This document shows, one piece after another, positions 1 to 32,300 of a stretch of DNA of 64,000 nt; position 1 is the first letter of the stretch; each line of letters starts with the position of its first letter. Position numbers and translations under genes: made by a program. Location of the stretch: IMG/VR virus record IMGVR_UViG_3300043773_002340, positions 7,913 through 71,912 of that record, one strand, 5' to 3'. Origin of the DNA: a virus. The notes beneath the pieces are model-generated. The model ran no database searches, was not told where the DNA came from, and saw only the letters and a list, made by a program, of their open reading frames with translations.

Positions 1-193
1 CACGGGGTTGGTTGCCGTAGAAGGCGGAGTTAGGCTGCCAGGGCTCATCTTCCTTCTTCAGCTTGCTGACCTGAGGGGAGAGAACAGGCACGTCTTCGGC
101 TTCGATGCCGGTGCCGTGGGAGCCACGCTCGCTGAATTCATACAGCTCGTACGCCTGCTTAAGTGCGGCGTCGGCAATCGAATCTTTACGCAT
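1..193 (-). CDS. Hypothetical protein, runs off left edge; putative internal head protein
   Basis: Not in ORF track. ATG at 193 reads MRKDSIADAALKQAYELYEFSERGSHG... open to position 1; GGGTAAAA motif 22 nt upstream; contains FSE motif. Confidence 0.7.
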   Translation of the reverse strand, partial: MRKDSIADAALKQAYELYEFSERGSHGTGIEAEDVPVLSPQVSKLKKEDEPWQPNSAFYGNQPR

Positions 194-215
194 TTGTCGG
201 AGGACTTTAGAACTA

Positions 216-223
216 TTTTACCC
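216..223 (-). promoter_or_regulatory. GGGTAAAA motif (putative late promoter)
   Basis: ttttaccc on + strand, 22 nt upstream of ATG 193; overlaps the TAA of the upstream gene. Confidence 0.65.
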
Positions 224-631
224 TGGATTGACGCGTTGTGATTGAATTTTCTGCAGGTTTCTCATCTGGGCCTGCCGTCCAGCATTATTTGCCTGCTTGT
301 TGAAAGCTGTCGCCGTGCCCCTTACTTGAGCTGTTTGAGAGGATTGGCTGACACCTGACTGGGTCGCTCCCTTCGGAAGTTGCTTATTTTTCTTCCCTTT
401 GCTGGGTGCTGCGGGCGCCTCGTCTTTAACCGCGGATGCCAAAACCGGTTTACCGTCCTTCATCACCCAACTGACCTTCTCCTCCTCAAATGTCGAGGGC
501 ATTCCTCTAGATGGCATGTTGGTCTCGAGGCCACGATCACGTGCGTGACCCTCAGCGAAGGACCAGTCGATGACGTTATAGTGAACACCTTCGATGAGGT
601 GGTCGACAGAAGGAAGGTTGAAAGTGTTCAT
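218..631 (-). CDS. Hypothetical protein (putative internal head protein)
   Basis: ATG at 631 (MNTFNLPS) just after upstream stop; FAE motif; low-complexity Q/K/A tail. Confidence 0.7.
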   Translation of the reverse strand: MNTFNLPSVDHLIEGVHYNVIDWSFAEGHARDRGLETNMPSRGMPSTFEEEKVSWVMKDGKPVLASAVKDEAPAAPSKGKKNKQLPKGATQSGVSQSSQTAQVRGTATAFNKQANNAGRQAQMRNLQKIQSQRVNPG

Positions 632-18200: not shown

Positions 18201-19138
18201 CTGATGGTGACGTTGCTGCCTGCGACGATGCGTGTCACGCCCGCGTCGGAGGCCGCGCTCCATGTAGGCGGAGCACCATCTCCCTGACTCGTCAGGATGT
18301 AGCCAGCCTGACCAAAGTTCGTGCCGTCAGTTGACCAAGCACCAGCCTGATTGGCGAGGAACTTGAGATCGCCGAGACCGTCCGAAATGGCGACATTGCC
18401 ATTCCAATCACTTCCACCGGGATAGGCGCCAATGATGACGTTCCCGTCTCCACCGCGCACCCCTGAGCCAGCCTCACGGCCAAGAAAAATGTTGCTATCA
18501 CCCTCTGTCAGGTTGTAGCCCGACTTGAAACCGATGGCAATGTTCCCCGAGGCCTGACCACCGGGATCATTTCCAAGGGCCTCTGAGCCAATGATGACGT
18601 TCTCCCCACCGTCAATGTTCCAGCCCGCTTGATGTCCAATGACGACGTTGTCGCTGACATCATTCTGGTTGAGACCGGCTTGGAAACCGATGACGACGTT
18701 GCGAAGACCAGAGCCGATGCTATTTCCGGCTTGATAGCCGAGAAACGTGCTTGAGTTACCACCAAGGGAGGTCGTTGTCAGGCCGAAGACCACACCCACA
18801 TCGGTGGGAGTGGCGGAGTCGAAGTTGTCGACCCAACCCGTGACGTAGTCTCCGTCAGTCAGTTTAGAGAGGACTTGGCCGGTCAAGCCGCCTTCGGGAA
18901 CTCCCGGACCCGGGGGTCCCGGTTGGTCACCACCGCCTGTGACGAATGTTTTCCAGCCCAGTCCCGGTGGAGGAAGATCGGGTAGAGGATCGCCATAGAC
19001 ATCGTAGTTGACGTCCCCACCGTAACCAACAAATTGGAGGTTGTCAGCGACGTTAAAGGCGATCTCGCCGGGAAGAAGACCGTTGGGCGGAACATTTCCC
19101 GAAGTAAGACTATGAAGGAGTTGGAGCTTTGTCGTCAT
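15260..19138 (-). CDS. Long tail fibre (1292 aa)
   Basis: Mtd_N-like head [12 protein letters not shown]; beta-roll; many GVTxLxAGxNITI shaft repeats; GQVL...W repeats; ends LDAGTY. Confidence 0.9.
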   Translation of the reverse strand: MTTKLQLLHSLTSGNVPPNGLLPGEIAFNVADNLQFVGYGGDVNYDVYGDPLPDLPPPGLGWKTFVTGGGDQPGPPGPGVPEGGLTGQVLSKLTDGDYVTGWVDNFDSATPTDVGVVFGLTTTSLGGNSSTFLGYQAGNSIGSGLRNVVIGFQAGLNQNDVSDNVVIGHQAGWNIDGGENVIIGSEALGNDPGGQASGNIAIGFKSGYNLTEGDSNIFLGREAGSGVRGGDGNVIIGAYPGGSDWNGNVAISDGLGDLKFLANQAGAWSTDGTNFGQAGYILTSQGDGAPPTWSAASDAGVTRIVAGSNVTISPSGGTGVVTISASGGGGGGGGVTAIQANNGLLVSGGGTNPIITSGGLEVDFTKVVATSLYNTNGTLLIGSSSGPAQLPVGTAGQVLQVSQAGAVNWASIPSASPATPTTFGLVYGATGNTGAFYGYGSGTGITGTNNVLLGLNAGTNIGAGANNTVVGAYQGTSGMSNSVALSTGAGSVRFFSNSAGAWSISGDTQFGQAGQVLTSQGSGAAPRWIAPINAPITDVNDGPGISTDIAGTTLTISNEGVLSVAANSPIVAANAGGNITLSAPNVLSDLQQGTGITVSGTGNSRTVTNTGVVQLQNGTNTTVENVGGGVWKVNATGGGGGGITSLTQGTGITITNPSGPSPTIANSGILNVVSATPGTLDVTVTNGVASLSVNGGTGVTKLVAGSNISLSPTSGVGEVTISAAGGGGGGSITQITSAAGSGISVTSGTGPVVTLANTGVLEVAGGTGIRVDPNGPGKFTIVNTQAASSVLSVSGQGAGISVSPTSGAVVVQNTGVTSITGTTGNITASSAAGAVTLDIGTNVLTNVTAGNSGIAVAGTGNTRSISATVAGLTAGAGIDLTNNSGNFTIKNTGVLGLTAGANVTITETTPGSGNFTIASTGGGGGGSGTVTSVTAGSGLIGGTITTSGTLAIDNNIVVRYPDYDGRPPGSMLYTDTTGHDWTGRIPVNNTSGNKAVLQGWTTAAATFVSWGDPNVGGFQNSPSITFRKSLAPTQYANEFVFEISTPYQEQRLLNWNNNAATISAGQIAYGYPSGTTLGDTNYTTNLNPPPLNTDRLYFLSGDFQSFPLTSDKAWKPAWKNAADHFVSSVQVTAPIINSGSARAPVIGFDINTTALTQYIPKSSFALTGQLLYGTGAGTFSALNIGNNGQVLTVSASGTPVWANPSSPGSPISLTPADDTILMTPSPITGTGTIGVNSTKFVQTSVIQSKGDMIYGGAAGVPARLSAGTSGQVLQMSNTGVPAWVTDLDAGTY

Positions 19139-21036: not shown

Positions 21037-24000
21037 TCAAGGAAGGGCGACTAGCACGGCAGAGAAATTGCTGGCGGTACCCTGCCCCATCGAACATCCT
21101 CCCGTCGCATTACGTATTTGCACGCACATAGCGTCGGTCGTCCCGTTCATGTAGGCGAGTGCTCCCGCATTTCCGCTAACTAAATTGTAACCGCCACTTG
21201 TTGAGATGACGGTGCCGTTGCAGACCAAGGAGAGAACATTTTCGCAGGCTCCCGCAAAAATCCTCCCTCCAGCGGTAACCTGGTACCAACCTGGGACGGT
21301 CGGTGTGAACACTCCGGTGGTCGAGTTGTACCAGGAGGTGGAGTCAGAAACCGCCGTGCAGTATCTGAGAACTTGAGGCGTGTAAGAGGCACAGGAGGTG
21401 AGAGTTATACCGTTTGCGTTGCGGGTCATCGCGCAGCCCGCATTGGAGCCGTTCGACCACTTGACCGCGTTGGCGCCGGTGCTCGAGAGGACTTGACCCG
21501 CAGTGCCGCAGCATCCGGCACAGTCGATGATGCCAGCGCCAGGCTTGATGGCGAACGTGCAGTCGCCGCTCAGCCAGTTGATGTTGTTCACGCCGATAGC
21601 GAGTTGGCAACTGCCAGTGGCGCTCGGGAAACAGACGTTCGTGCCGATGGCGATGTTGCTGTTTCCGGAGGCCATGTTGTAGCCGGCCTGCACACCGATG
21701 AAGATGTTGCAGATGCCCGTGCTGACCCCACAGCCCGCGTTCGTTCCTAGAGCGACGGAGTTGCAGCCACCAGTTCCACTTGTGTTGCGAAGTGTGCCCT
21801 GACCGATCGCGGTGACCGAACACGCCGTTGTCGCGGCAGCTGTAGCGAAAGCCGCCTCACCGAGTGCGACGTTGTAGCAGCCGGTCGTGGCGCACCTGCC
21901 GGCGACGCCGCCGATGTAGGTGTTCAGGCAGCCGACGTCAGAGAGGGCGGCGTTTGTGCCAAGGTAGGTGTTGCCGCACCCGGTGTTCTGTGAACAACCG
22001 GCATTGAAGCCGATGGCGATGTTGCCGCTGGTCCCGTCAAGGGCACATCCGGCATTTCCACCAATGGCCACGTTGAAGTTGCCGCTTGTGAGGGCGAGGC
22101 CGGCGCTGCAACCCATCACGGTGTTTGAACTGCCGGTGGTGAGGCAACGACCGGCGTTGCTGCCGATGACGACGTTGTTCGAGGTGGCGACTCCAGAACC
22201 TGCGTTGCATGCAGCATTAAGGCCGATGTAGACATTGTTGTTGAGGCCGGCTCCGGCGCTGATGCCGAGCGAAGTGTTTGTTCCGGCGGTGCAGCCGAAC
22301 ACGATACCCGCCACTGCCGGGGTGGCGGTCATGGTGCGCCAGCGAATGGGGCCTAGGCCAGTGCTGACCAGGAACTGGTTGCATGTTCCCGTGGTGCCCA
22401 AGCAGTCGATGATGCCGGCACCGGGTTTGATGTTCCTGTCGCTATCACCTGTGAGCCAGTACTGACCAGCAGCGAAACCGATGGCGAGTTGACAGGACCC
22501 CGTGGCCACAGCGACATCCACCGCGTTGCCGATGGCGACGTTCTGGTCACCGGCGGTCGTGCAACAACCAGCCTCACTACCGATGAAGACGTTTCGGTTG
22601 CCGGAGCTGTTCTGTCCCGCCGCGAGACCGAGAGCCGTGTTGTTGACTCCGACAAGATTGTTCAGAAGAGCTCCTGCACCCACGGCGGTGTTATTTCCGC
22701 CGGTGGTGGTCGCACAGCTCGTGTTCACACCCACAAAGGTGTTTTGAGAGCCTGTGGTCAACTGTCTGCCGGAGTTCAAACCGACGGAGGTGTTGGCACA
22801 ACCGGTGGAAACAGTGCTGAGACTGAAACTGCCAACACCGGTGTTGCTTCCGCCATTGCCTCCGGTGAACAGTGCGCCGTAACCGACCGCAGTGTTGTAG
22901 AGAGCTGTGGAGGTACCGCAACTGGCGCTCGGCCCGACAGCCACGTTGTAGCAGCCAGTGGTTATTCCTCGAAGAGCATTTTCACCGACGCCGACGTTCC
23001 TCACGCCTGTGGTGAGACCCCGCATTGCGGAGAAGCCGATGCCGACGTTGCACCCACCGCCACCGTTTGTGGCCATGGCGTAGGAGCCGAAAGCCGTGTT
23101 TCCTTCACCGGCGGACGAGCCGCTCAGGGCACAGAAACCTACCGTCGTGTTGTCAGCGCCTGTGGCACTCGCCAAAGCGCACTGACCGAGTGATGTGCTG
23201 CGGTTGGTGATGTCCTTTGTGCATCCAAAGACCGTGCCTAGAACGATCGGGGTCGCTGCGGGGACTTCAGCCGCGGAGCACCAAGCGAGGCCAGTGCCAG
23301 TCGATGTTAGGAGCTGACCCGCAGTTCCAACACAACCGGCAGCGTCGATGATGCCTGCGCCGGGTTTGATGTTCAAGTTGGAACACCCGGTCAACCAGTT
23401 GCAACCCTGATTGAAACCGATGACGAGCTGGCAGCTTCCTGTCGCGACAGGAGCGTTGACGTTGGGTCCGATGATGACGTTGCAACCACCGGATGTGAGG
23501 TTCTTGCCCGCGAGAGCGCCCAGGGCGACGTTGCTATTATCTACCGCCGGGTTGGACGCGGAGTAGGCGCAGAGTGCAAGTGCACCGATCGCGGTATGGT
23601 AGTTTCCGGAGGCCGTGGCGGGGAGGGCCGCGGTGCCAACGGCGGTGATGCAACTGCCTGTGCTGTAGCACTGAGCCGCCGCCCATCCTATCGCCACAGC
23701 GCAGGTCGCAGTCGTGACTCCGCCCAAAGCACAGCGTCCGAGAGCAGCGTTGAGTGTTGTGGTGCAGCCGAGAACGGTGCCGGCCACAAGAGGTGTGGCG
23801 GCGACAGGCAGAGCGGGCCCCCACTTGACTCCAGATGGGAAGGCGGAGTCTACTGTGAGGACTTGGCCGTCAGTTCCAAGAGCGAGATTGGCGGGAGTTG
23901 AAGCGGCTGTCGCAACGAGAATGCTGCCGCATGCCGTGTAGTTGCTCAGTGGGACGTAGGTGGCTTTCGCTCCCGCAGGAGTGACGGCCAGAGTCGCGTC

Positions 24001-26730
24001 AGTGCCAGTTCCAGTTTCGGCATTTGTCGCGAGCTGAACGATTCCGGGAGCGGAGGTCGAAGCGGTGGGAATGTCAACACCGACGTTCAGGAACTCCCAA
24101 AGTGCCCCGTTGGAGAGAAGCCAGTCCCCCTGATTGGTGACGAAGGGAGTGGCGGGGCCGATCGTGTCTACTGGAATGCTCCACGGTGTGCCACTTGTGG
24201 AGAATGCCGTGAGACTGTTGCCAACAGTGTAGTCCGATCCACCACTCACCAGCACGACGTTGGTGACGACACCAGCACCATCAACCGTGATGTCAGCAGT
24301 TGCACCATTACCAGTTCCGCCAACGAGAGGCTCAGCGAGGTAGGTTCCGGGAGTGTAGCCTGTCCCTCCGACGAGAGTCCCGAGGGTCAAGATCGGCCCA
24401 CCCGCACCTGGAGGTGTGTAGGTGCCGCCATTCGTGACGATCACGAAGTAGTCCGTGTTCGAAACAGCAGCGTTGGGAAGGTCGTCCCCAATAGTGAAAC
24501 CTTCGCCTTCTCCAGCGCTGGTCACCGTGAGCATTTCAGCGGCGGTCGCGTCAAATGTCCCGGCGAGTGTCAAACTCGTGGCAACCAACAGATCGTCGAT
24601 CTGGTTCTGAAGAAGCCGTCCCTGATTCGCCGTCAGAGCTTGAGTGGTCGAAGTCGAGGATGTGGTGTTGTTGAGTTGGACCACACCAGCGGCGGTCGTC
24701 GAAGCGGCCGCGACACTGACAACTGGTGCAGTTCCGGCGGTCACCGAGACAGGAGCCGTTCCTGTCACTCCGGTCACCACTCCCGGGAAAGTCTGGCCCG
24801 CGTTGAAAGTGATGTTGCCGGTCATTGTCCCGCCTGTCCTCGGCAGGGCGGCATTCGCTGTCGCGCTTGCCGTGTTGGCGACACCCGCGGCGCTGGTGGC
24901 GGCCTGGAAAGCGTTCTTGACCGAGTTCGGAGTCGCGGCAGTCGTTGTGCTGCTGCTTCCAGTCGAGTCGGTAAGTTGGAGAACGCCAGCGGCGGTTGTG
25001 GAGCCAGCATTGACGCTGATGACTCCAGAGGCGACTTGGATGTTGTCGCCGATTTGGACGACCCCTTTCGAAGATGTCGTCGCGTCAGAAATGCTTGTGC
25101 CTGGGAACGTCTGACTCGCGCTGAACACGATGTCGCCAGTCATTGTCCCGCCCGACTTAAGCAGTGCGCCACTCGCCAGGTTATAGGCGAGTTTCACCGA
25201 GTTGGGGGTCGCAGCGGTTGTCGTGCTGCTGCTGTCTGTGGCGTCTGTGAGCTGAAGCACACCAGCGACGCTTGTCGATCCAGCGGCGACACTGATGATG
25301 CCAGAGGAAACGTCGATGTTGCTGCCGATCTGAACGACACCAAGTGAAGATGTGGTGGCGGGGTCGACACCGCTTGGCGGAAACGTCTGAGTGGGACTGA
25401 AGACGATGTCGCCAGTCATGGTCCCACCCGCTGTGGGCAGAGCCGCATCAGCGGTCGCCTGAGCTGCGGCCGCATCGAGAGCGGCCTGGTCAGCAGCATC
25501 CTGTGCAGAGGACGCGGCGGTTCCAGCGGCTAGAGCGGCATCATTGGCCGTCTTGGCAGCTGTGCTCGAGGCGATGATGGCGCTCGAAGTTGTGGACACA
25601 CTGTCGCTGAGTTTGCTCTGCAGACCAGCTGGTGTGACGACGGTGGAGGTGTTGGAGCCGGTTTGAACCTGTGCGTCGGTGGCGAGGATGACCTCACCTT
25701 GGACGGTGGTCGAAGCGTAGGGAGCGTCCAAACCGACGTTCAGGAACTGCCACGCAACTCCGTCCGAAACGAACCAGTCACCCACGGTGTAGGGAGGAGT
25801 TCCGGCTGGTCCTGTGCTTCCGGCAACGTCAACGATGACAAAATATCCGTCATTGGCAACCGCTGCCGCCGGGAGTGGGTCACCGACAACAAAACCCTCA
25901 CTGGTTCCCTGTGGGGTCACACCATCCACCAGTCCGGTGTTCGCGTCGAACGTGCCGGCGAAGGTGAGGTTGGTGGTGAATGAGAGAACGTTGATCTGGT
26001 CCTGAAGGGCCTTGCCTCGGGCCGCTGTCAAGGCTTCCGTTGTAGAAGTGCTCGTGGTCGTGTTGTTCAGTTGGACAACACCGGGAGCGGAAGTGCTCGC
26101 CGCTGAAACACCCACAGCGGGCTGAGTCGGGTCAGCGTTGTCAACCGTGATGGCGGAGCCGCCTGTCGCGGAAACACTGGTGACCACGCCGGGGAATGTT
26201 TGTCCCGCTTTGAAAGAGATATTTCCAGTCATCGTGCCGCCTGCTTTAGGCAGCGCGGCATTCGCTGTCACCTGAGCGGTGTTCGCCAGTGTCTGAGCCG
26301 TGATGGCGGTGTTGTCCGCTTGAAATGCTAAGTTGTAGGCGGAGCGCACAGCATTTGCTGTGGCCGCCAGTGTGGTGGAAGTGCTTGAGGTCGAATCGGC
26401 GAGTTGAACTGCACCCGCATTCGACACTGAGGCGGCATCAATCGACACCACAGGGGTGCTGACTGAACCTGTGACCTGGATAGGAGCGGCTCCCTGAACG
26501 ATGTTCACCGATCCACCGCCGCCTCCCCCGGCCAGCAAGAAGGAGACCCAACCTTGACCGGCGGGAGGGGGAGGGAGAACGGGATTTCCGCCTATGTCGG
26601 TCCTTTCGTCGCTGCCGTTTCCGAGAAACAGAATGTTGTCCGCCAAGTTGAAGGCGAGTTGCCCAGGCAACAGTCCTTCGGGGGACTCGCCGGGGACGGA
26701 CGATCGGGTTTGCTGTACGGATAATGACAT
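21037..26730 (-). CDS. Giant tail fibre (1897 aa) with Cys-rich beta-roll distal half
   Basis: Mtd_N-like head; ASTxxxGxVQL fibre repeats; three beta-roll + IKPGAGIID modules; C1q-like tip (GVFTPTVPGWYQV). Confidence 0.9.
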   Translation of the reverse strand: MSLSVQQTRSSVPGESPEGLLPGQLAFNLADNILFLGNGSDERTDIGGNPVLPPPPAGQGWVSFLLAGGGGGGSVNIVQGAAPIQVTGSVSTPVVSIDAASVSNAGAVQLADSTSSTSTTLAATANAVRSAYNLAFQADNTAITAQTLANTAQVTANAALPKAGGTMTGNISFKAGQTFPGVVTSVSATGGSAITVDNADPTQPAVGVSAASTSAPGVVQLNNTTTSTSTTEALTAARGKALQDQINVLSFTTNLTFAGTFDANTGLVDGVTPQGTSEGFVVGDPLPAAAVANDGYFVIVDVAGSTGPAGTPPYTVGDWFVSDGVAWQFLNVGLDAPYASTTVQGEVILATDAQVQTGSNTSTVVTPAGLQSKLSDSVSTTSSAIIASSTAAKTANDAALAAGTAASSAQDAADQAALDAAAAQATADAALPTAGGTMTGDIVFSPTQTFPPSGVDPATTSSLGVVQIGSNIDVSSGIISVAAGSTSVAGVLQLTDATDSSSTTTAATPNSVKLAYNLASGALLKSGGTMTGDIVFSASQTFPGTSISDATTSSKGVVQIGDNIQVASGVISVNAGSTTAAGVLQLTDSTGSSSTTTAATPNSVKNAFQAATSAAGVANTASATANAALPRTGGTMTGNITFNAGQTFPGVVTGVTGTAPVSVTAGTAPVVSVAAASTTAAGVVQLNNTTSSTSTTQALTANQGRLLQNQIDDLLVATSLTLAGTFDATAAEMLTVTSAGEGEGFTIGDDLPNAAVSNTDYFVIVTNGGTYTPPGAGGPILTLGTLVGGTGYTPGTYLAEPLVGGTGNGATADITVDGAGVVTNVVLVSGGSDYTVGNSLTAFSTSGTPWSIPVDTIGPATPFVTNQGDWLLSNGALWEFLNVGVDIPTASTSAPGIVQLATNAETGTGTDATLAVTPAGAKATYVPLSNYTACGSILVATAASTPANLALGTDGQVLTVDSAFPSGVKWGPALPVAATPLVAGTVLGCTTTLNAALGRCALGGVTTATCAVAIGWAAAQCYSTGSCITAVGTAALPATASGNYHTAIGALALCAYSASNPAVDNSNVALGALAGKNLTSGGCNVIIGPNVNAPVATGSCQLVIGFNQGCNWLTGCSNLNIKPGAGIIDAAGCVGTAGQLLTSTGTGLAWCSAAEVPAATPIVLGTVFGCTKDITNRSTSLGQCALASATGADNTTVGFCALSGSSAGEGNTAFGSYAMATNGGGGCNVGIGFSAMRGLTTGVRNVGVGENALRGITTGCYNVAVGPSASCGTSTALYNTAVGYGALFTGGNGGSNTGVGSFSLSTVSTGCANTSVGLNSGRQLTTGSQNTFVGVNTSCATTTGGNNTAVGAGALLNNLVGVNNTALGLAAGQNSSGNRNVFIGSEAGCCTTAGDQNVAIGNAVDVAVATGSCQLAIGFAAGQYWLTGDSDRNIKPGAGIIDCLGTTGTCNQFLVSTGLGPIRWRTMTATPAVAGIVFGCTAGTNTSLGISAGAGLNNNVYIGLNAACNAGSGVATSNNVVIGSNAGRCLTTGSSNTVMGCSAGLALTSGNFNVAIGGNAGCALDGTSGNIAIGFNAGCSQNTGCGNTYLGTNAALSDVGCLNTYIGGVAGRCATTGCYNVALGEAAFATAAATTACSVTAIGQGTLRNTSGTGGCNSVALGTNAGCGVSTGICNIFIGVQAGYNMASGNSNIAIGTNVCFPSATGSCQLAIGVNNINWLSGDCTFAIKPGAGIIDCAGCCGTAGQVLSSTGANAVKWSNGSNAGCAMTRNANGITLTSCASYTPQVLRYCTAVSDSTSWYNSTTGVFTPTVPGWYQVTAGGRIFAGACENVLSLVCNGTVISTSGGYNLVSGNAGALAYMNGTTDAMCVQIRNATGGCSMGQGTASNFSAVLVALP

Positions 26731-26733
26731 CTA

Positions 26734-26958
26734 TCAGCCCTGCGAACCAAAGACGCCACAATCAAATGTTCCTTCGGTGACGTAGTTTGGATCCAGAGCA
26801 ATAGAGTCTGTTGTTACAACAAGCCCATTCTCCAGGGGCAGGGGGCCCGTAGTTGTGTAAATATCCGGGGCATCCTCAGAATTCAGGATGCGGTCGGGGA
26901 GCGGTGTGCTGCCAGGATATTGAGGAGAGGGCGGTACGATGAAAGTGAAGTTGGGCAT
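26734..26958 (-). CDS. Small fibre-associated adaptor-like protein
   Basis: 74 aa from ATG 26958; ends TFDCGVFGSQG; paralog of 8652..8816. Confidence 0.75.
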   Translation of the reverse strand: MPNFTFIVPPSPQYPGSTPLPDRILNSEDAPDIYTTTGPLPLENGLVVTTDSIALDPNYVTEGTFDCGVFGSQG

Positions 26959-26983
26959 TATCAAACAGACCCAGATGAAGGTG

Positions 26984-26991
26984 TTTTACCC
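26984..26991 (-). promoter_or_regulatory. GGGTAAAA motif (putative late promoter)
   Basis: Overlaps the glycosyltransferase stop; 25 nt upstream of ATG 26958. Confidence 0.65.
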
Positions 26992-27885
26992 TCCCAGGGA
27001 TTCGACAATTTCGTCGACGTTGAAGAGATCTCCCAGATCCTCCTCTTCGTACGGAAACTCGTTCTCGTTCCCGTCGAATTGATAGTCGAAGAGGTACGAA
27101 CCCGGCAGCGAACGCTTCGGCTTCTGTTTGGCTTGGATGTTCGTGTGGAGACCGTGACCGAAAATCACCGAAGATGTCGCATTCCACAGAACAGTGCTAG
27201 GCAGCTCAAATGCGGCAGCGGCGTGTTGGAGTGAGGAGTCGATCAGGAGGCGTTTGTCGGTCAGTTCCAGAAGACCAACGAGTTCCGTGTTGCTCAGAGG
27301 CTCACTGCGCACGAAAACATCGGGGATCTTCTCAGAATTCTGCCGAGTGATCTGCATGATGAAGTGTGTGTCACGGAAGTGATCCGCCACTTTGCAGGCC
27401 ACATCGAAAGGCATGTCGCGAGCCCAGCTGTAGGGACGCTCGTTACTGTAGAGTCCACCATTGGTGTGGATCAGCAGGAATGGCTTACCTTCGAACTTCG
27501 GCTCGTAGAAATTCTTGATCGCCTTGCGCTGCTCTGGGTTGATTTTCAGAGAGGGCTTCTCCCCGTTGTACTCGAGACCGAGAGTCTTGCACCAGGACTC
27601 GACGAGGGAGTGAGTCTTGTTGACGTGGGTAGTGGTGAAATATGGCTCTTGGGCGAAAATCAGCGAGTCTTTATCTTCGACAAACTCTTCGTAGAAATAC
27701 TGTGTCTGGCCAAGCGGATACACTCGGTAGACGAAAGGCAGGTTTGCCCAGAGCTCCGGCCACGCACAGACGACCACGAGCTCCCGGTCAGGGTGGTTGT
27801 TTTTGATGGCCTTGGCTACCGCTGTCGCAGCGATGTGCTTGCCGAGGCCACCGTTGATCTGGAAGATGCTGTATTTTTTAGACAT
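26986..27885 (-). CDS. GT-B fold glycosyltransferase, GT9/heptosyltransferase-like
   Basis: GGLGKHIAATAVAKAIKNNHPDRELVVV...ELWANLPFV and LIDSSLQHAAAAFELPSTVLW match the GT9 N- and C-terminal signatures. Confidence 0.85.
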   Translation of the reverse strand: MSKKYSIFQINGGLGKHIAATAVAKAIKNNHPDRELVVVCAWPELWANLPFVYRVYPLGQTQYFYEEFVEDKDSLIFAQEPYFTTTHVNKTHSLVESWCKTLGLEYNGEKPSLKINPEQRKAIKNFYEPKFEGKPFLLIHTNGGLYSNERPYSWARDMPFDVACKVADHFRDTHFIMQITRQNSEKIPDVFVRSEPLSNTELVGLLELTDKRLLIDSSLQHAAAAFELPSTVLWNATSSVIFGHGLHTNIQAKQKPKRSLPGSYLFDYQFDGNENEFPYEEEDLGDLFNVDEIVESLGG

Positions 27886-27911
27886 GGAGACCGAGGGTTT
27901 GTCTTAGTATA

Positions 27912-27940
27912 GTGAAAGAGGGGAGGCCGAAACCTCCCCC
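27912..27940 (-). terminator. GC hairpin with short U-rich tail (putative terminator)
   Basis: GGGGAGG-TTTCGG-CCTCCCC-TCTTTCAC on minus strand; followed directly by TATACT upstream of the glycosyltransferase. Confidence 0.6.
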
Positions 27941-27947
27941 TTGGTCA

Positions 27948-29363
27948 TCAGGCGCCGACGGGGACGACGGTCGTGATGATGGACGGGATGGCGGGGTACG
28001 GAGCGACAGCGTTCTCTGCGAGCAGTTGGACGTCGGTGTCAAGCGACCACCACCAGATCTCGATGAAATCACCAGCGGCCAGGGTCATGATGAAGTTGAC
28101 AGTGGCGAGCTGGGGAGTGTTGTTACCGACCAGGGTGATGTTCGATGCCGAGTTGTCGACGTTGACACCGTTCTTCTTGAACCAGATGTTGATGTCGTCG
28201 CTACCTGCGTCCGTCTTCGTCACCTGCATCGAGAACTGGATGTTGTAGGTTCCAGCGGAGGCCACTGTGAGCTTGGTTCCGTCAACGATGCTGACGTTGC
28301 GGCTCTCAGTCGTGGTGTTGTAGGTGACTGCGTTTCCGTTGGTGGTGTCTAGGTTGTTCTGAGGAACTGTGCTGAGGAAGGAACCGTAGTTCGGCAGCAG
28401 GGCGGCGGAGCCTGTCCAAGCAGGAGCGGATCCAGTGCCTGTCGACATCAGGATCTGACCGTTGGTTCCGTAGGACGGGGTCGTACCGACACCCACGGCA
28501 CCGTTCTCGTTGACCTGCAGTTTGATGGTTGTACCGGCGGCCAGGATAAGGTTGTCGGCAAGGGCCGCTGTACCGGAAATGTCACCGATGATGGTGTTGT
28601 TGCTTCCAGTTGTAACAGCGTCGCCAGTGGTGTAACCGAGGAAGGTGTTGCCACCACCAGTAGTTACGGAGTCGCCCGCCTGGAAGCCCAAGGCCACGTT
28701 GCCCAGACCCGTGGTCACAGCGAGCAGGGCACAAGCGCCGACGGCAGTCGTTCCGCTTTGGTTATGAGCCGCACCGAGAGCATTCCATCCAATAGCCACG
28801 CCGCAGGAAGTCGCCACGGTCGTATCACCAGCGCCGCTTCCGATAAACGTGTTGCATCCGCCAGTGTTAGCGAAACCGGCTGTGGCTCCGACGAACGTGT
28901 TGTCACAGGATGTGACTAAAGCTCCTCCAACGAAAGCTCCCACCAAGGTGTTGCGAGCGCCGGTTTGAATAGCCTTGCCCGTGTTGGCCCCATAGGCTGT
29001 GTTACGTTGGCCCGATGTCACGGCGCAAAGGGTGCAAGAACCAAATGCGCTATTCAGGGAGGATCCAGTAGTTGCAGATCTCAGTGCGCATAAGCCATAA
29101 CTTAGATTGTCTTTGGGCGCATCCCAAAGGCCATATACGGTGCCAAGCGCTGTGGGCGTGGCCGCGGCTCCGGCACTTGCCGCTAAGTCGTAGGCGGCTT
29201 TTACTGCGTTGGCCGTGGCGGCTTCGGATGTGGAAGTGCTACTAGTAGTGTCGTTGAGTTGTACGATACCAGCCCCCGAAGTCGAGGAGGCCGGCAGGTT
29301 GGCGATGGCGATGGTGGAGCCGTTCTGAATAAAAACGTCACCAATGTAGAAAGATTCGGACAT
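27948..29363 (-). CDS. Tail fibre/adhesin with Cys-containing beta-roll and C1q/BclA-like tip
   Basis: ASSTSGAGIVQL repeat; NTFIGSGAG repeats with 7 Cys; AGTYNIQFSMQ...IWFKKNG...LAAGDFIEIWW tip. Confidence 0.85.
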   Translation of the reverse strand: MSESFYIGDVFIQNGSTIAIANLPASSTSGAGIVQLNDTTSSTSTSEAATANAVKAAYDLAASAGAAATPTALGTVYGLWDAPKDNLSYGLCALRSATTGSSLNSAFGSCTLCAVTSGQRNTAYGANTGKAIQTGARNTLVGAFVGGALVTSCDNTFVGATAGFANTGGCNTFIGSGAGDTTVATSCGVAIGWNALGAAHNQSGTTAVGACALLAVTTGLGNVALGFQAGDSVTTGGGNTFLGYTTGDAVTTGSNNTIIGDISGTAALADNLILAAGTTIKLQVNENGAVGVGTTPSYGTNGQILMSTGTGSAPAWTGSAALLPNYGSFLSTVPQNNLDTTNGNAVTYNTTTESRNVSIVDGTKLTVASAGTYNIQFSMQVTKTDAGSDDINIWFKKNGVNVDNSASNITLVGNNTPQLATVNFIMTLAAGDFIEIWWWSLDTDVQLLAENAVAPYPAIPSIITTVVPVGA

Positions 29364-29381: not shown

Positions 29382-32300
29382 TCAGAGAACGGTGGGCTGG
29401 GAGCCGAAGGAGGCGGTGTACTTGTAAACAGCGTTTACAGTGGCCAGTGACACGGACGGGGTGAAGGTCACAAGGGTGTCGTTGCCTGCGTTGGTCTCAA
29501 GTGTGAAGAAACCGAATGTTCCAGTCGAAGAAGTGATGATGCTGGATCCGACTCCGCTGTCAGAGGCGATGGTGATGTTCGCCCATGCGACGTTCGTGGA
29601 GTTGTCTGTCAGCATCACGGTCAGCGTGCCCATGCGAATCGCGCCGGAGAAGCTGAGGAGGTCGAGTGGCGTGGCGGCGACTGTGGCCTTTGTGGTGGCA
29701 GTTGAAAGTGTCTGAGGTGTGGACCAAGTGGGAGCGCCACCAGTTCCAGCAGATGTGAGGACCTGACCAGAAGTACCGTAGCTCGGGGTGGAGCCAACAC
29801 CCACGGCACCGTTCTCGTTCACCTGCAGCTTGATGGTCGAACCAGCGGCAAGAACGAGGTTGTTGCTCAGGGTTGTGGTTCCGGCGTAGGAGCCAACGAT
29901 GGTGTTGGTGGTTCCAGTCGTGATGTTATTACCGGCGTTGTAGCCGATGAGCGTGTTAGCGTTTCCAGACACGTTCTGTCCAGCACCGAAACCAACTGCT
30001 GTGCTCTGCGAACCGGTGATGTTGAGGCTGAGAGCGGTGTAGCCGAGGGCGGTGTTGGCGGTTCCAGTGGTGTTGGCTTGGAGTGCGTTGTGGCCGACAG
30101 CCACGAGGTTGGCGGCAGTGGAGGCAGTGAGGGCGTTGTTACCAACGGCGACGTTGTTACCACTGGTGGTAGCTGTGGTCAGGGCATTGAAGCCGATGGC
30201 AACGTTGTTGGCGCCCGAGGTTACAGAGTCACCAGCAAGACCGCCAACGAAGGTGTTGACCGATCCATTAGTAACTGCGGTACCAGCGTTGAAACCAACA
30301 GCGACGTTGCACCCACCACTTGTCGCAACAGCGAGTGTGTTTGCACCGATGGCCACGGATCCCGGAGCAGTGGCGACACCACCGAGGGCATTCAAACCGA
30401 CGGCGACCGTGTTGTCAGCTGTAGTAGCAGCGTCACCAGCATTCGCCCCGACGAAGGTGTTTCCTCCGCCCGTGGTCAGTGCGGCACCCGTATTGGCTCC
30501 CAAACCAGTGTTATTGTTAGTTCCACCAGCACCAAGGGCGTTGGAGCCCAATCCAGTGTTATTGTCGCCGGATGTGGCGGCGTCACCTGAGCCGAAGCCA
30601 ACATAAGTGTTGTTATTGCCAGCGGTGATTGCCGTTCCAGCGTTGTATCCCAGAGCGGTATTGTTAACGCCACTCGTGATACTGTTACCAGCATTTCCAC
30701 CAAGGGCCGTGTTGAACGGAGTGGCTGTGCAGGTGTAGCCAGACAGAGGAGCTGCGGGAGCGGCCCAAGTCGGGACGCCAGCGGCGACTGTCAGAACTTG
30801 ACCGGCGGAGCCGATAGGCAGAGCGGCAGCAGTGCTCGCAGCGGAGGCGTAGATGATGTCACCGGTCGCGGTCAGCAGGGAAGGAGCGATGACGGCAGAA
30901 CTGTCGAGTGACAGGGTCACATCACCGGAAGTGCCACCACCGGTGAGGCCAGTGCCGGCGGTCACGGCAGTGATGTCACCGATCTGAGGAGTCGTCCAAG
31001 TTGGAACGGCTCCACTTCCTCCTGAGGTCAGGACTTGACCGGCAGTACCGAAGTTGGTACCATCGGGGGACCAAGCACCAGAGGTATTTGCCTGGAACTT
31101 GACAGTGCTTCCGGCGGCGAGGATGACGGTGTCGGTGAGGGCGGCGGAGCCGTTCACATCGCCGATGATGGTGTTATTGAAGCCAGTTGTGATGACGTCA
31201 CCAGCGTTGGCACCGATGAGGATGTTAGTGCCACCCAGTGTTAGAGCTGAGCCAGCATTTGAACCGACGAGAGTGTTGTTGCTGCCTGTGGCAGTGTCGC
31301 CAGCGGCGAAGCCGATGTAAGTGTTGTCGGAACTAGTGGTAACAGCTTGACCCGCACTGGTCCCCACTGCGGTGTTACGAAGACCCGATGAGTTAGCAGC
31401 AAGAGCTTGGAAACCAACCGCAACAAGGTTCGAGCCTGATGTGGTAGATTGTAGCGACCCAGCACCGACGGCTACGTTGGTACCACCGCTTGTGACGCCG
31501 GCAAGGGCGTTGAAGCCAAGAGCTGTGTTGGCTCCACCGTTGGTGATAGAGTCACCGGCGTTTGCACCAACAAGAGTATTGCTTACACCGGTTGTAACAG
31601 CTGTTCCAGCATTGTAACCGATTGAAGTATTGCCTGTTCCACTGGTGATTGAGTCACCAGCGTTGCCACCCAGAGCGGTGTTGAATGGTGTGGCGGTGTT
31701 GGTGTAGCCAGACAGAGAAGCGCCCCATGCGATCTCCCCGGCGGAGACGATCAGCGACTGACCGTTTGTGCCGATCGGCAGAACATCATAGGTGCCAGCG
31801 CCAGTTCCGTAGAGCAGTTCACCAGCAGTCGTGAAGGTCGCGTCGGGAATGGCAGCATCTGCTGTGGACTGGGCAGCAGCAGCGTCGATAATCGCCTGAT
31901 CGGCGGTCGACTGAGCGGCGGCAGCGTCGATCAGAGCTTGATCTGCATCAGTCTGGGCAGCAGCAGCATCCGTCTGACCTTGAATACCGGCGTCGTAGGC
32001 GGCCTTGACCGCAGTCGCAGAAGCGGCAGTGGTGCTGGAGGTGACGTTCGTCGCGTCGGTGACAGCGTTAAGGGAGCCGTTGACACCACCTGCGAACTGC
32101 AGCGAGTAGGTGCCTTGAACGTTGACGTTTTGGGCGGTGATCGTGCCCGTCATCGTGCCGCCAGCTTTCGGCAGAGAGGCATTTGCCACGGCCAAAGCAG
32201 CGGCGGCGTCGGTCTGACCCTGAACGCCGGCGTCGTAGGCGGTCTTGACAGCAGTGGCGGAAGCGATTTGGCTGCTGTTGGTCACGTTGACCGCATCGAT

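What the first reader, a model, noticed from the sequence alone, without database searches (positions are those of the whole stretch)
21037..29363. Candidate tail-fibre S-glycosylation system: GT9-like enzyme with Asp-to-Lys active site between Cys-studded fibres
Seen: the 1897-aa fibre has no Cys in residues 1-933 but about 53 (hand count) in residues 934-1897. The Cys fall at different positions in its three repeated modules (WLTGCSNL / WLTGDSDR / WLSGDCTF; IIDAAGCV / IIDCLGTT / IIDCAGCC), replacing S/T/N/D/A rather than forming a conserved pattern. The fibre on the other side of the glycosyltransferase (27948..29363) has 7 Cys in ~130 aa of beta-roll, whereas the paralogous fibre 29382..34100 has 4 Cys in 1572 aa and I saw none in 15260..19138. 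Established: GT9 enzymes (WaaC) and the related autotransporter heptosyltransferases TibC/Aah use the Asp of an N-terminal GD motif as base, and TibC/Aah hyper-glycosylate Ser on beta-helical adhesins. Here that motif reads GGLGKH while the donor-binding DS..H motif is intact. Inference: a Lys could favour a thiolate acceptor, so the phage may coat its distal fibre with S-linked sugars (receptor binding, shielding or stability).
Basis: partly seen in the sequence, partly recalled or inferred. Interest (0 to 1): 0.82.

Follow-up and report, generated by a model that had tools for sequence, protein, structure and literature searches.

The report
Cysteine-studded phage fibres beside glycosyltransferase
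An uncultured large phage encodes a heptosyltransferase-like enzyme, with a lysine where such enzymes have their catalytic aspartate, between tail fibres whose outer parts are packed with cysteines; the same pairing recurs in many phages and some bacteria, so the enzyme probably decorates the fibre, perhaps on cysteine, but this is unproven.

Summary
The 1897-aa fibre has 0 Cys in residues 1-933 and 53 in residues 934-1897 (5.5%, against 0.77% in the window's other proteins). The neighbouring 471-aa fibre has 7 Cys, the paralogue 4 and the 15260..19138 fibre 0.

The 299-aa protein has a GT9 fold (Z 19-23 to GT9 structures, next fold Z 11.8). It keeps the DS..H motif. Lys16 sits where WaaC has Asp13, and this Lys is family-wide (75 of 77 sequences).

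- Beta-roll fibres near this enzyme have a median of 4.7% Cys; those without it have 0.43%.
- In an unbiased comparison the enzyme is the family most enriched beside Cys-rich fibres (14 of 25 contigs against 0 of 38).
- Bacteroidota chromosomes repeat the pairing on a different repeat scaffold.

The cysteines occupy only the hypervariable, non-strand positions of a YadA/UspA1-like 17-residue roll. They show no pairing signal, and they move between orthologues while their number stays constant.

An S-linkage remains an inference (about 0.4). Rivals are O-linked decoration with redox-active Cys, or a target other than the fibre.

This scan has noted the same system on at least 14 other genomes. 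This window is a variant with no sulfotransferase in its 72-kb fragment.

The parts
21037..23931 (-). Distal, Cys-rich part (residues 934-1897, 53 Cys, 5.5%) of the 1897-aa fibre. It has three modules of 17-residue beta-roll coils, each ending in ATGSCQLxIG...W-L-[TS]-G...IKPGAGIID, followed by a C-terminal tip domain.
   Evidence: AF2 model of residues 1475-1760: pLDDT 76.9 overall, 80-95 in the coils. Best structural matches are YadA-like heads: UspA1 with Z 19.4 and BpaC with Z 16.8.
23932..26730 (-). Proximal, Cys-free part (residues 1-933) of the same fibre, with Phage_fiber_2 and Phage_fiber_rpt repeats.
   Evidence: PF03406 E 2.8e-25; PF22337 E 2.1e-8.
26734..26964 (-). Small ORF (76 aa from TTG, 74 aa from a later start) between the fibre and the enzyme. 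No family match; function unknown.
26986..27885 (-). 299-aa glycosyltransferase-like protein with a GT-B fold closest to GT9. It belongs to a distinct 'GG[IL]GK...DSxxQH' family.
27838..27852 (-). Codons for G12-G13-L14-G15-K16, the loop between strand 1 and helix 1. K16 pairs with WaaC D13 in a gapless offset-3 alignment.
   Evidence: K in 75 of 77 family members; K 43 and R 2 of 45 locus homologues.
27223..27240 (-). Codons for D216-S217-S218-L219-Q220-H221, the GT9-type donor-site motif.
   Evidence: D 74, S 75 and H 75 of 77.
27948..29363 (-). 471-aa fibre protein immediately upstream of the enzyme gene. It has 7 Cys, all within the beta-roll at residues 92-211 (nt 28731-29090).
29382..34100 (-). 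1572-aa paralogous fibre with two beta-roll modules but only 4 Cys (0.2% in the roll). It serves as an internal contrast.
15260..19138 (-). 1292-aa fibre-like protein with beta-roll units and no Cys. It serves as an internal contrast.

Best explanation
The 299-aa protein is a cytoplasmic GT-B glycosyltransferase. It belongs to a separate family derived from the GT9 heptosyltransferase fold, with signature GG[IL]GK near the N-terminus and DSxxQH in the C-domain. I propose that it decorates the phage's own fibres after translation, acting on the outer face of their YadA-like beta-roll. The most likely acceptors are the cysteine thiols that stud the hypervariable loop positions of each 17-residue coil, giving an S-linked sugar. 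A thiol is a good nucleophile and needs no carboxylate base, which would explain why the catalytic Asp of GT9 enzymes is replaced here by an invariant Lys/Arg. That residue could stabilise a thiolate or the leaving phosphate.

Shown: the fold, the motifs, the Cys statistics and the genomic coupling.

Inferred: that the enzyme acts on the fibre, that the linkage is to sulfur, the identity of the donor sugar, and the role of the decoration (shielding reactive thiols, receptor binding or protection).

In most relatives a sulfotransferase, and sometimes FkbM methyltransferase, GT2/GT25 or PAPS-kinase-like genes, would then elaborate the sugar. This window's 72-kb fragment carries only the core enzyme.
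For: Fold:
- The AF2 model has pLDDT 95.
- Foldseek's top hits are all GT9: 3tov at 1.7e-11, then WaaF, WaaC and TibC.
- VIA gives Z 23.2, 21.1, 19.8 and 19.3 for 3tov, WaaF, TibC and WaaC. The next fold class scores Z 11.8.
- hhalign to E. coli WaaF gives probability 90% over the C-domain.

Active site:
- K16 is present in 75 of 77 family members.
- K16 pairs with WaaC D13 in a gapless alignment consistent with VIA's ranges.
- In TibC the equivalent Asp-110 is the catalytic base, and D110A is inactive (PMC4358343, passages read).

Coupling in phages:
- In loci fetched through the enzyme, beta-roll fibres have a median of 4.7% Cys and 19 of 22 reach 2% or more. In loci fetched through the Cys-poor paralogue the median is 0.43% and 7 of 40 reach 2%.
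- Only 1 of those 39 Cys-poor-query loci has the enzyme, and it has a 73-Cys fibre.
- Of 23 contigs fetched with a Cys-rich fibre as query, 16 carry the enzyme. The other 7 are fragments that are 2-37% complete.
- In an unbiased family enrichment the enzyme ranks first, at 14 of 25 contigs against 0 of 38 (p 1.2e-7), and sulfotransferase ranks second.
- In 76 metagenome loci holding the enzyme, 26 of the 28 that include a roll fibre have 3% Cys or more.

Coupling in bacteria:
- 9 of 19 Bacteroidota and other bacterial loci have a protein of 300 aa or more with 3% Cys or more next to the enzyme. None of 13 random 20-kb control regions of the same genomes does (0 of 106 such ORFs).
- Those bacterial proteins use a different repeat (FIGGGxxNxI), and Cys again appears only at its variable positions.

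Nature of the Cys:
- Cys content across 120 homologous fibres is bimodal, either 0-0.7% or 3-7%.
- Cys occupy positions 6/7, 10/11 and 16/17 at 13-19% each. Scaffold positions hold 3% or less.
- These positions lie outside the single DSSP strand per coil.
- There is no positive co-occurrence of Cys within or between neighbouring coils.
- Cys counts are even in 38 and odd in 28 of 66 Cys-rich fibres.
- Among three orthologues, 47 of 60 Cys columns are conserved, against 754 of 904 other columns. Totals stay at 53, 54 and 54, and individual Cys relocate within a coil.
- No thioredoxin or sulfhydryl oxidase is among the enriched neighbour families.
Against: - No experiment or structure links enzyme and fibre. 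The one complex prediction gave no verdict.
- No GT-B or GT9 enzyme is known to make S-glycosides. Known S-glycosyltransferases are GT2 enzymes acting on peptides (search listings).
- The coil also carries a conserved T13-T14 pair, which could be the acceptor as in TibA/AIDA-I.
- Fusions of the enzyme family to GT25 and FkbM domains fit an enzyme that acts on a sugar as well as they fit one that starts a chain on protein.
- The phage samples are phylogenetically clustered and contain near-duplicate contigs, so the p-values overstate independence.
- Some loci with the enzyme show no Cys-rich protein in the flanks available (L003, L005, L018, L064, L072, L074, L076, L122).
- Eight contigs with Cys-rich fibres show no enzyme, though all are 2-37% complete.
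- Solvent exposure of the Cys is inferred from variability, DSSP and similarity to YadA-like heads, not measured on coordinates.
- A single Cys per coil could still meet its copies from the other two chains of a trimer. The pairing test cannot see this.
Confidence: 0.4

Rival explanations
1. The enzyme does decorate the fibre, but on Ser/Thr, for example the conserved T13-T14 of each coil, as TibC/Aah do on TibA/AIDA-I. The cysteines then serve another purpose: they oxidise after lysis into inter-chain or inter-fibre disulfides, or bind metal, to harden the fibre. The two traits travel together because both belong to one fibre cassette.
For: - TibC heptosylates Ser on a beta-helical adhesin encoded next to it (PMC4358343, passages).
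- T13/T14 are the most conserved polar residues of the coil.
- The freshwater cyanophage Pam3 uses disulfides to attach fibres to the baseplate wedge, and DTT releases them (PMC9942802, passages).
- A trimer could bring identical Cys from three chains together without any second Cys in one chain.
Against: - T13/T14 are equally conserved in fibres without the enzyme (T 59%/37% in Cys-rich fibres against 63%/46% in Cys-poor ones). They therefore do not explain why the enzyme tracks Cys content.
- Cys occupy the same positions that hold Tyr, Arg, Gln and Glu in Cys-poor fibres, which is unlikely for a packed trimer axis.
- There is no pairing signal, no parity bias and no raised conservation.
- The catalytic Asp needed for O-glycosylation in GT9/BAHT enzymes is absent family-wide.
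Confidence: 0.25
2. The enzyme builds or alters a glycan that is not on the fibre, such as host envelope polysaccharide or LPS, or another virion protein. Its link to Cys-rich fibres would then reflect shared ancestry of a phage lineage and its Bacteroidota-type hosts.
For: - GT9 enzymes classically act on LPS core.
- Family members are fused to GT25 ('LPS biosynthesis') and FkbM domains.
- In relatives the enzyme sits with an NDP-sugar dehydratase, a GT2-methyltransferase and sulfotransferases, like a polysaccharide cluster.
- The phage samples are clustered by descent.
Against: - The enzyme is embedded among late structural genes on the same strand.
- It is the family most enriched beside Cys-rich fibres in an unbiased test.
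- The pairing recurs in chromosomal Bacteroidota loci, on a different repeat scaffold and at several paralogous loci per genome, with 0 of 13 control regions.
- Cys-rich neighbours occur in every deep branch of the enzyme tree.
- No LPS-core genes were seen beside the bacterial copies scanned.
Confidence: 0.15
3. The protein is a pseudo-enzyme. It keeps a GT9 fold but has lost the catalytic Asp, and it serves as a fibre assembly factor or virion component, as GT9-like subunits do in the plant NDH-PSI complex.
For: - The catalytic Asp is replaced.
- GT9-like chains of plant NDH-PSI supercomplexes are among the best structural matches at Z about 18.
- Phage fibres often need dedicated chaperones encoded next to them.
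Against: - Twenty-one residues, including the nucleotide-sugar site motifs (G143 G144, W154, R156 D157, D216 S217 H221), are 90% or more conserved across a family only 27-44% identical overall.
- The replacement residue itself is invariant, which suggests function rather than decay.
- Fusions and neighbours are sugar-modifying enzymes.
Confidence: 0.07

Closest known systems
Bacterial autotransporter heptosyltransferases TibC/Aah with their adhesins TibA/AIDA-I (BAHT family; PDB 4rap, 4rb4)
   Same: - GT-B catalytic domain of the GT9 type (VIA Z 19.8, rmsd 3.3 over 263 residues).
- A cytoplasmic enzyme encoded beside a long repetitive beta-solenoid adhesin that it modifies many times over (PMC4358343, passages).
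- This is the best analogy for how the system would work.
   Different: - P0002 lacks TibC's first ~90 residues, since the model aligns to TibC 91-385.
- It has Lys where BAHT and GT9 enzymes have the catalytic Asp.
- Sequence similarity is undetectable outside the DS..H region.
- The substrate candidate is a phage fibre with a YadA-like roll rich in Cys, not a Ser-rich autotransporter helix.
- The sugar is unknown.
LPS heptosyltransferases WaaC/WaaF and GT9 structure 3tov (CAZy GT9, Pfam PF01075)
   Same: Closest fold (Z 19-23). The C-domain is homologous by profile (WaaF probability 90%). The D-S/T-G-x-x-H donor motif is kept.
   Different: - The Pfam score of 16.3 bits is below the 22-bit cut-off.
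- The NCBIfam heptosyltransferase I score is 10.9 bits against a cut-off of 185.
- The N-terminal 'GD' of WaaC, WaaF and WaaU reads 'GK'.
- The genomic context is fibres, not LPS core genes.
Glycocin S-glycosyltransferases (SunS, ThuS, PalS and relatives)
   Same: They are the only established bacterial enzymes that put a sugar on a Cys sulfur (search listings and abstracts). SunS is encoded on a prophage (recalled).
   Different: They are GT2 enzymes (GT-A fold; recalled) that act on one or two Cys of small secreted peptides. Here there is a GT-B fold and tens of candidate Cys on a structural protein. This is a resemblance of chemistry only, and an unproven one.
Mycobacteriophage virion glycosylation (Freeman et al. 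2023)
   Same: Phage-encoded glycosyltransferases next to structural genes decorate the phage's own virion proteins. I saw this only as a citation and one summarising sentence in PMC12619734.
   Different: There the glycans are on C-terminal tails of capsid and tail-tube subunits and are O-linked (recalled). Fibres, Cys and a GT9-like enzyme are not involved.
YadA/UspA1/BpaC head domains of trimeric autotransporter adhesins
   Same: The fibre's 17-residue coils model as the same left-handed beta-roll. UspA1 3pr7 gives Z 19.4, rmsd 3.7, 237 residues aligned, 20% identity. BpaC 7o23 gives Z 16.8, rmsd 2.6, 26% identity.
   Different: The roll here sits in a phage fibre with Phage_fiber_2 repeats. 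The repeat is 17 rather than about 14 residues (the latter recalled). Heavy Cys loading is not a known feature of these heads.
Disulfide-tethered fibres of cyanophage Pam3
   Same: A freshwater phage whose virion uses cysteines functionally in its fibres (PMC9942802, passages).
   Different: Pam3 uses one Cys per fibre chain, paired with a few wedge Cys. Here there are 53 Cys per chain, spread over the roll surface, with no pairing signal.

Membership tests
GT9 (Pfam PF01075 Glyco_transf_9; heptosyltransferases) | Two-Rossmann GT-B fold closest to solved GT9 enzymes | tested here: met
   Foldseek E 1.7e-11 to 3tov, with WaaF, WaaC and TibC next. VIA Z 23.2, 21.1, 19.8 and 19.3, against 11.8 for the best non-GT9 fold.
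GT9 (Pfam PF01075 Glyco_transf_9; heptosyltransferases) | Sequence score above the curated family threshold | tested here: not met
   PF01075 scores 16.3 bits against a cut-off of 22, covering only residues 201-243. TIGR02193 scores 10.9 bits against 185.3. phmmer against PDB finds nothing. The profile against PDB finds WaaF at E 0.022.
GT9 (Pfam PF01075 Glyco_transf_9; heptosyltransferases) | C-domain donor-site motif D-[ST]-G/x-x-x-H | tested here: met
   LIDSSLQHAAAA aligns to NDSGLMHVAAAL of WaaF and VDTGLSHLTAAL of WaaC. D216, S217 and H221 are present in 74, 75 and 75 of 77 members.
GT9 (Pfam PF01075 Glyco_transf_9; heptosyltransferases) | N-terminal G-D with Asp as catalytic base (WaaC D13, recalled; TibC Asp-110, PMC4358343) | tested here: not met
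   WaaC, WaaF and WaaU all read 'GD'. P0002 reads G15-K16 at the matching place. This rests on VIA ranges 4..299 against 1..318 and equal spacing of strand 1, loop and helix 1. K is present in 75 of 77 members. There was no residue-level superposition.
GT9 (Pfam PF01075 Glyco_transf_9; heptosyltransferases) | Uses ADP-heptose as donor | not testable with these tools
No heptose-synthesis genes were looked for or seen in the window.
BAHT family (TibC/Aah) | N-terminal extension before the catalytic domain, and dodecamer assembly | tested here: not met
   P0002 is 299 aa, and its residue 1 aligns to TibC residue 91. Oligomeric state was not tested.
BAHT family (TibC/Aah) | Encoded next to the repetitive beta-solenoid adhesin that it hyper-glycosylates | tested here: inconclusive
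   Adjacency to beta-roll fibres is shown here and in relatives. Modification of the fibre is not shown.
Glycocin-type S-glycosyltransferases (SunS-like, GT2) | GT-A fold GT2 catalytic domain | tested here: not met
   The model has a GT-B fold. There is no PF00535 match in the whole 71.9-kb record.
Phage tail fibre (Phage_fiber_2 / Phage_fiber_rpt) | Pfam repeats above threshold | tested here: met
   PF03406 scores 88.1 bits (P0001), 39.2 (P0003) and 39.5 (P0004), against a cut-off of 22. PHROG tail-fibre and tail-spike families also match.
YadA-like head (trimeric autotransporter beta-roll) | Left-handed parallel beta-roll of short repeats with a conserved N-x-x-h-G strand | tested here: inconclusive
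   VIA wide gives UspA1 at Z 19.4 and BpaC at Z 16.8 with 20-26% identity. Foldseek gives only E 0.019. The model is a monomer with pLDDT 76.9. Trimer state was not tested.

The most novel reading that the evidence does not exclude
GG[IL]GK enzymes form an unrecognised family of protein S-glycosyltransferases derived from the GT9 fold. They attach sugars to dozens of surface cysteines on beta-roll adhesins, namely tail fibres of many aquatic phages and large repeat proteins of Bacteroidota. In most lineages the sugars are then sulfated or methylated. This would be the first S-glycosylated virion, the first GT-B S-glycosyltransferase, and a new general way of coating adhesins. Cys density, rather than Cys position, would be what selection maintains.
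Probability: 0.35. Interest if true: 0.88.

Novelty: new variant of a known kind. Interest (0 to 1): 0.72.

Why it matters
Fibres decide which hosts a phage can attach to and are the parts most exposed to the environment. If they are chemically coated by a phage-encoded enzyme, host-range prediction, fibre structure work and fibre engineering would all miss a layer.

The enzyme family has more than 2000 members in public metagenomes, and every source name I saw was 'hypothetical protein'. Cys-rich roll fibres are common: 67 of 120 homologues have 2% Cys or more, though the search query was itself Cys-rich. Whatever the chemistry, it is widespread in aquatic phages and has a counterpart in Bacteroidota chromosomes.

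If the bond is to sulfur, S-glycosylation would extend from a handful of small bacteriocins to large structural proteins. It would also add a catalytic solution, Lys in place of the Asp base, to a well-studied fold.

The question is directly testable with two genes expressed in E. coli.

Tried and rejected
- **Complex prediction.** Complex prediction with the enzyme (A1) and fibre residues 1475-1760 (A3) gave 'no answer', score 0.00. It counts neither for nor against binding.
- **Sequence-only placement of the enzyme.** phmmer against PDB found nothing relevant. NCBIfam gave only a 10.9-bit hit. PHROGs gave an unnamed family. The protein atlas gave 'hypothetical protein' clusters, one with PF01075 on 45% of members.
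- **Named phage relatives.** tblastn found one unannotated record (MH319754.1, 56% identity). Megablast of 14 kb of the window found none.
- **His17 as base.** I considered that His17 of GGLGKH might be a MurG-like catalytic His (the MurG motif is recalled). I rejected this because position 17 is Asn in 49 of 77 members and His in only 7.
- **Walker-A reading.** I considered a Walker-A reading of GGLGK and rejected it by eye, because the spacing and the following residue do not fit.
- **Intrachain disulfides.** No positive co-occurrence was found at coil offsets 0, 1 or 2. Odds ratios ran from 0.35 to 2.1, and none was significantly above 1. There was no parity bias.
- **Redox helper genes.** None appeared among the families enriched beside Cys-rich fibres.
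- **Whole-protein Cys label on the enzyme tree.** Using 3% Cys or more over the whole protein gave 14 changes against 15.4 in shuffles, which is uninformative. Fibres have Cys-free proximal halves and many loci are truncated. I use the tree only to show that Cys-rich neighbours occur in all deep branches.
- **Query with the window's own Cys-rich module.** It returned only 2 loci.
- **Literature.** Searches for S-glycosylation with phage, glycosylated tail fibre, cysteine-rich tail fibre, and phage-encoded sulfotransferase with glycosyltransferase found no description of this system. Supplementary files were not opened; those of PMC4358343 and PMC9942802 could hold details that I did not see.

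Full report
**Setting.**
The window is bases 7913-71912 of a 71,912-base IMG/VR virus record that CheckV rates 32% complete. All long ORFs lie on the minus strand. They form a myovirus-type structural module: a baseplate wedge, a head protease fusion, a very long sheath-like ORF and at least seven fibre-like proteins. No close named relative exists in the phage collection.

**The observation.**
- The 1897-aa fibre (21037..26730) has 53 Cys, none before residue 934.
- The 471-aa fibre (27948..29363) has 7 Cys, all between residues 92 and 211.
- The 1572-aa paralogue (29382..34100) has 4 Cys.
- The 1292-aa fibre (15260..19138) has none.

The distal half of the long fibre is 5.5% Cys, against 0.77% for the other 17,470 residues encoded on the minus strand. 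Zero Cys in 933 residues has a probability of 3e-12 at the protein's own rate. The quoted motifs are all present.

**The enzyme.**
- *Sequence.* The 299-aa protein matches Pfam GT9 only below threshold (16.3 against 22 bits, residues 201-243). It belongs to a large unnamed family. There are 2289 proteins at E of 0.001 or better among 4054 candidates in the 90%-clustered database; the best 120 are either unnamed or 'hypothetical protein'. There are 621 representatives at 50% clustering.
- *Fold.* An AlphaFold model built on 77 diverse members is confident (pLDDT 95.1). Its nearest solved structures are all GT9. Foldseek gives 3tov at 1.7e-11, then WaaF, WaaC and TibC. VIA-align gives Z 23.2, 21.1, 19.8 and 19.3, and then drops to 11.8 for other GT-B enzymes. 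Profile comparison finds WaaF with 90% probability over the C-domain, including LIDSSLQHAAAA against NDSGLMHVAAAL.
- *Conserved residues.* Twenty-one positions are 90% or more conserved in a family only 27-44% identical to the query. Among them are G12, G13, G15, K16, T21, G143, G144, W154, R156, D157, D216, S217 and H221.
- *Lys16.* Lys16 is present in 75 of 77 members. Among 45 homologues taken from loci it is K in 43 and R in 2. His17 is not conserved. WaaC, WaaF and WaaU of E. coli all read G-D after strand 1. VIA aligns model residues 4..299 to WaaC 1..318, and the strand-loop-helix spacing is the same. A gapless pairing therefore puts G15-K16 on G12-D13. This is an inference from ranges, not a residue-level superposition.
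- *TibC comparison.* In TibC the corresponding Asp-110 is the proposed catalytic base, and D110A is catalytically inactive (PMC4358343, passages read).
- *Conclusion.* The 'Asp-to-Lys' reading holds, and it is a family signature rather than a local mutation.

**The fibres.**
The Cys-rich region is built of 17-residue coils: N1-x-x-h-G5-x-x-A8-G/L9-x-x-x-T13-T14-G15-x-x. A model of residues 1475-1760 has pLDDT 76.9 overall and 80-95 in the coils. It shows one three-residue strand per coil, at positions 2-4. Its best structural matches are the beta-roll heads of trimeric autotransporter adhesins. UspA1 gives Z 19.4, rmsd 3.7 over 237 residues. BpaC gives Z 16.8, rmsd 2.6 and 26% identity. Foldseek alone was weak at E 0.019.

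**Where the cysteines sit.**
I compared 651 distinct coils from Cys-rich homologues with 1093 from Cys-poor ones. Cys occupies positions 6/7 (4.5% and 12.7%), 10/11 (18.6% and 17.8%) and 16/17 (14.9% and 16.0%). It is 3% or less at all eleven scaffold positions. In Cys-poor fibres the same six positions are the hypervariable ones, holding Tyr, Arg, Asn, Ser, Gln and Glu. They lie outside the DSSP strand. By analogy with YadA-like heads (recalled), the variable part of the coil faces outward.

**Are the cysteines structural pairs?**
Four tests say no, within their limits.
- Cys at the three hot spots do not co-occur in the same coil or in coils i+1 or i+2. Odds ratios run from 0.35 to 2.1, and the few nominally significant ones are below 1.
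- Cys totals are even in 38 and odd in 28 of 66 Cys-rich fibres.
- Two orthologues of the window's fibre are 92% and 86% identical to it. Among the three, 47 of 60 Cys columns are invariant (78%), against 754 of 904 other columns (83%). Trp and Gly are more conserved than Cys.
- The total stays at 53, 54 and 54 while individual Cys move, for example from position 16 to position 10 of the same coil.

Selection therefore seems to keep the density of Cys, not particular Cys. These tests cannot see contacts between identical Cys of different chains in a trimer.

**A two-state trait.**
Among 120 homologues of the distal fibre, Cys content of the roll is either 0-0.7% or about 3-7%, with few values between. 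Sixty-seven have 2% or more and 54 have 4% or more. The query was itself Cys-rich, which biases the proportion but not the gap.

**Co-occurrence in phages.**
- *Loci fetched through the enzyme* (22 viral loci). Roll fibres have a median of 4.7% Cys in the roll, and 19 of 22 distinct fibres reach 2% or more. That count includes the one enzyme-positive locus of the next set.
- *Loci fetched through the window's Cys-poor paralogue* (39 loci). The median is 0.43% and 7 of 40 reach 2% (Mann-Whitney p 1.4e-6). Only one of these 39 loci carries the enzyme, and its fibre has 73 Cys.
- *Loci fetched with a Cys-rich fibre of a relative* (28 loci on 23 contigs). Thirteen contigs have the enzyme within 10 kb and three more have it elsewhere on the contig. 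The other seven are fragments 2-37% complete.
- *Unbiased clustering.* I clustered all non-fibre ORFs of these two sets. The enzyme is the most enriched family beside Cys-rich fibres, at 14 of 25 contigs against 0 of 38 (p 1.2e-7). Sulfotransferase is second, at 12 of 25 against 1 of 38.
- *Apparent exceptions.* Two enzyme-positive contigs that seemed to lack Cys-rich fibres have them just outside the first flank.
- *Metagenome loci.* In 76 loci holding the enzyme, 28 include a roll fibre, and 26 of those have 3% Cys or more.
- *Closest clade.* In the clade closest to the window (74-80% identity) the order is Cys-rich fibre, a Cys-free protein of about 575 aa, the enzyme, and then optionally a 217-aa ORF and a sulfotransferase.

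Caveats: the sets are related by descent and contain near-duplicate contigs (for example L082/L083/L086, L081/L094, L088/L092, L106/L107), so the p-values overstate independence. Most contigs are fragments.

**Co-occurrence in bacteria.**
- *Loci.* A scan of one genome per species found 14 loci, mostly in Bacteroidota MAGs on contigs up to 360 kb.
- *Cluster.* A conserved cluster reads as follows: a protein of 870-1140 aa with 4.6-6.7% Cys and no Pfam match; an NHL propeller with a type IX secretion sorting domain; the enzyme, sometimes fused to an FkbM methyltransferase; an FkbM methyltransferase; and a sulfotransferase. One copy lies beside gldM and gldN.
- *A different scaffold.* These Cys-rich proteins use a different repeat (S-F-I-G-G-G-x-x-N-x-I). 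Again Cys appears only at its variable positions (8-16%) and never at scaffold positions.
- *Paralogous loci.* Five of these genomes each hold two or three strong copies of the enzyme. Of five further paralogous loci, two have a neighbour with 3% Cys or more (5.4% and 3.4%) and one has 2.9%.
- *Control.* In all, 9 of 19 bacterial loci have such a neighbour, against 0 of 13 random 20-kb regions of the same genomes. In those regions 0 of 106 ORFs of 300 aa or more reach 3% Cys, and the mean is 1.07%.
- *Tree.* On a tree of the enzyme, Cys-rich neighbours occur in the bacterial clade, in three isolated deep branches, in the window and in the main phage clade.

**Partner enzymes.**
In relatives the enzyme is flanked by sulfotransferases, a GT2-methyltransferase fusion, an NDP-sugar dehydratase and APS-kinase-like proteins. 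Family members are fused to FkbM or GT25 domains. A sulfotransferase is present in 24 of 30 metagenome loci of 8 kb or more. It is absent from three loci of the window's own clade that have 8 kb or more of downstream sequence. The window's whole 71.9-kb record has no sulfotransferase and no GT2 match, though two thirds of the genome is missing. The GT9-like enzyme is thus the constant partner of Cys-rich fibres and the others are optional.

**Reading.**
The simplest account of a glycosyltransferase family that tracks Cys content is that the cysteines are what the enzyme acts on. It tracks Cys content on two different repeat scaffolds, in phages and in bacteria. It also lacks the base needed to activate a hydroxyl. 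I put that at about 0.4.

The main rival (0.25) keeps fibre decoration but puts the sugar on Ser/Thr and gives the Cys a redox or metal role. Pam3 shows that freshwater phages do use virion disulfides. However, T13/T14 are equally conserved in fibres without the enzyme, so they do not explain the correlation. A non-fibre target (0.15) and a pseudo-enzyme (0.07) are less likely, for the reasons listed under each rival. Nothing here shows the bond, the sugar or even contact between the two proteins.

**Novelty and earlier notes.**
Six literature searches found no description of this system. This scan has noted the same pairing on at least 14 other genomes, with follow-up agents reaching similar verdicts. 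Those are unchecked AI notes, and I tested the claims independently here. This window and session add four things:
- a variant without a sulfotransferase in its 72-kb fragment;
- the pairing, parity and orthologue-turnover tests;
- the bimodality of Cys content;
- the bacterial paralogue and control comparison.

Noticed in passing
window 26734-26964 (-): A small ORF (76 aa from TTG) fills the gap between the Cys-rich fibre and the enzyme gene and has no family match.
   Followed up: partly
L148:11576-12370, L156:6455-7249, L198:11576-12373, L011:10896-11744 and many others: A sulfotransferase (PF13469/PF00685) lies one or two genes after the enzyme in 24 of 30 metagenome loci of 8 kb or more. 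APS-kinase-like ORFs occur nearby in some (L016:12183-13055, L092:16067-16975). None is present in this window's record.
   Followed up: partly
L066, L067, L069, L071, L126 (Bacteroidota MAG contigs): A conserved chromosomal cluster: a Cys-rich repeat protein of about 1000 aa without a signal peptide by eye, an NHL propeller with a T9SS sorting domain, the GT9-like enzyme, an FkbM methyltransferase and a sulfotransferase. In L066 it sits next to gldM and gldN. The role of the NHL protein is unexplained.
   Followed up: partly
P0275-P0393 (homologues of window 21037-23250): Cys content of roll fibres is bimodal (0-0.7% or 3-7%). Single proteins carry up to 132 Cys.
   Followed up: yes
L002:12345-14453, L002:7214-9031, L008:2743-6351: Several Cys-rich fibres of relatives end in an S74-type intramolecular chaperone region (S-D-x-R-D-K by eye). 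PF13884 is precomputed on many homologues. The window's fibre ends in a different tip domain.
   Followed up: no
L144:7602-9347, L146:3887-5614, L148:8189-9931, L152:8216-9937, L198:8176-9933: A Cys-free protein of about 575-585 aa always sits between the Cys-rich fibre and the enzyme in the clade closest to the window. Its function is unknown and it was not compared with the window's 471-aa fibre.
   Followed up: no
model m0d3193608ca9 (window 26986-27885): GT9-like subunits of plant NDH-PSI supercomplexes (9grx_1, 7wff_a, 7f9o_6) match the enzyme model nearly as well as bacterial GT9 enzymes (Z about 18). This shows that the fold can serve a non-catalytic role.
   Followed up: no
window 10549-12408 and 19179-21005 (-): Two paralogous fibre proteins of about 610 aa match collagen-like tail-fibre PHROGs (phrog_819, phrog_1806). 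They are Cys-poor (2 and 5 Cys).
   Followed up: no
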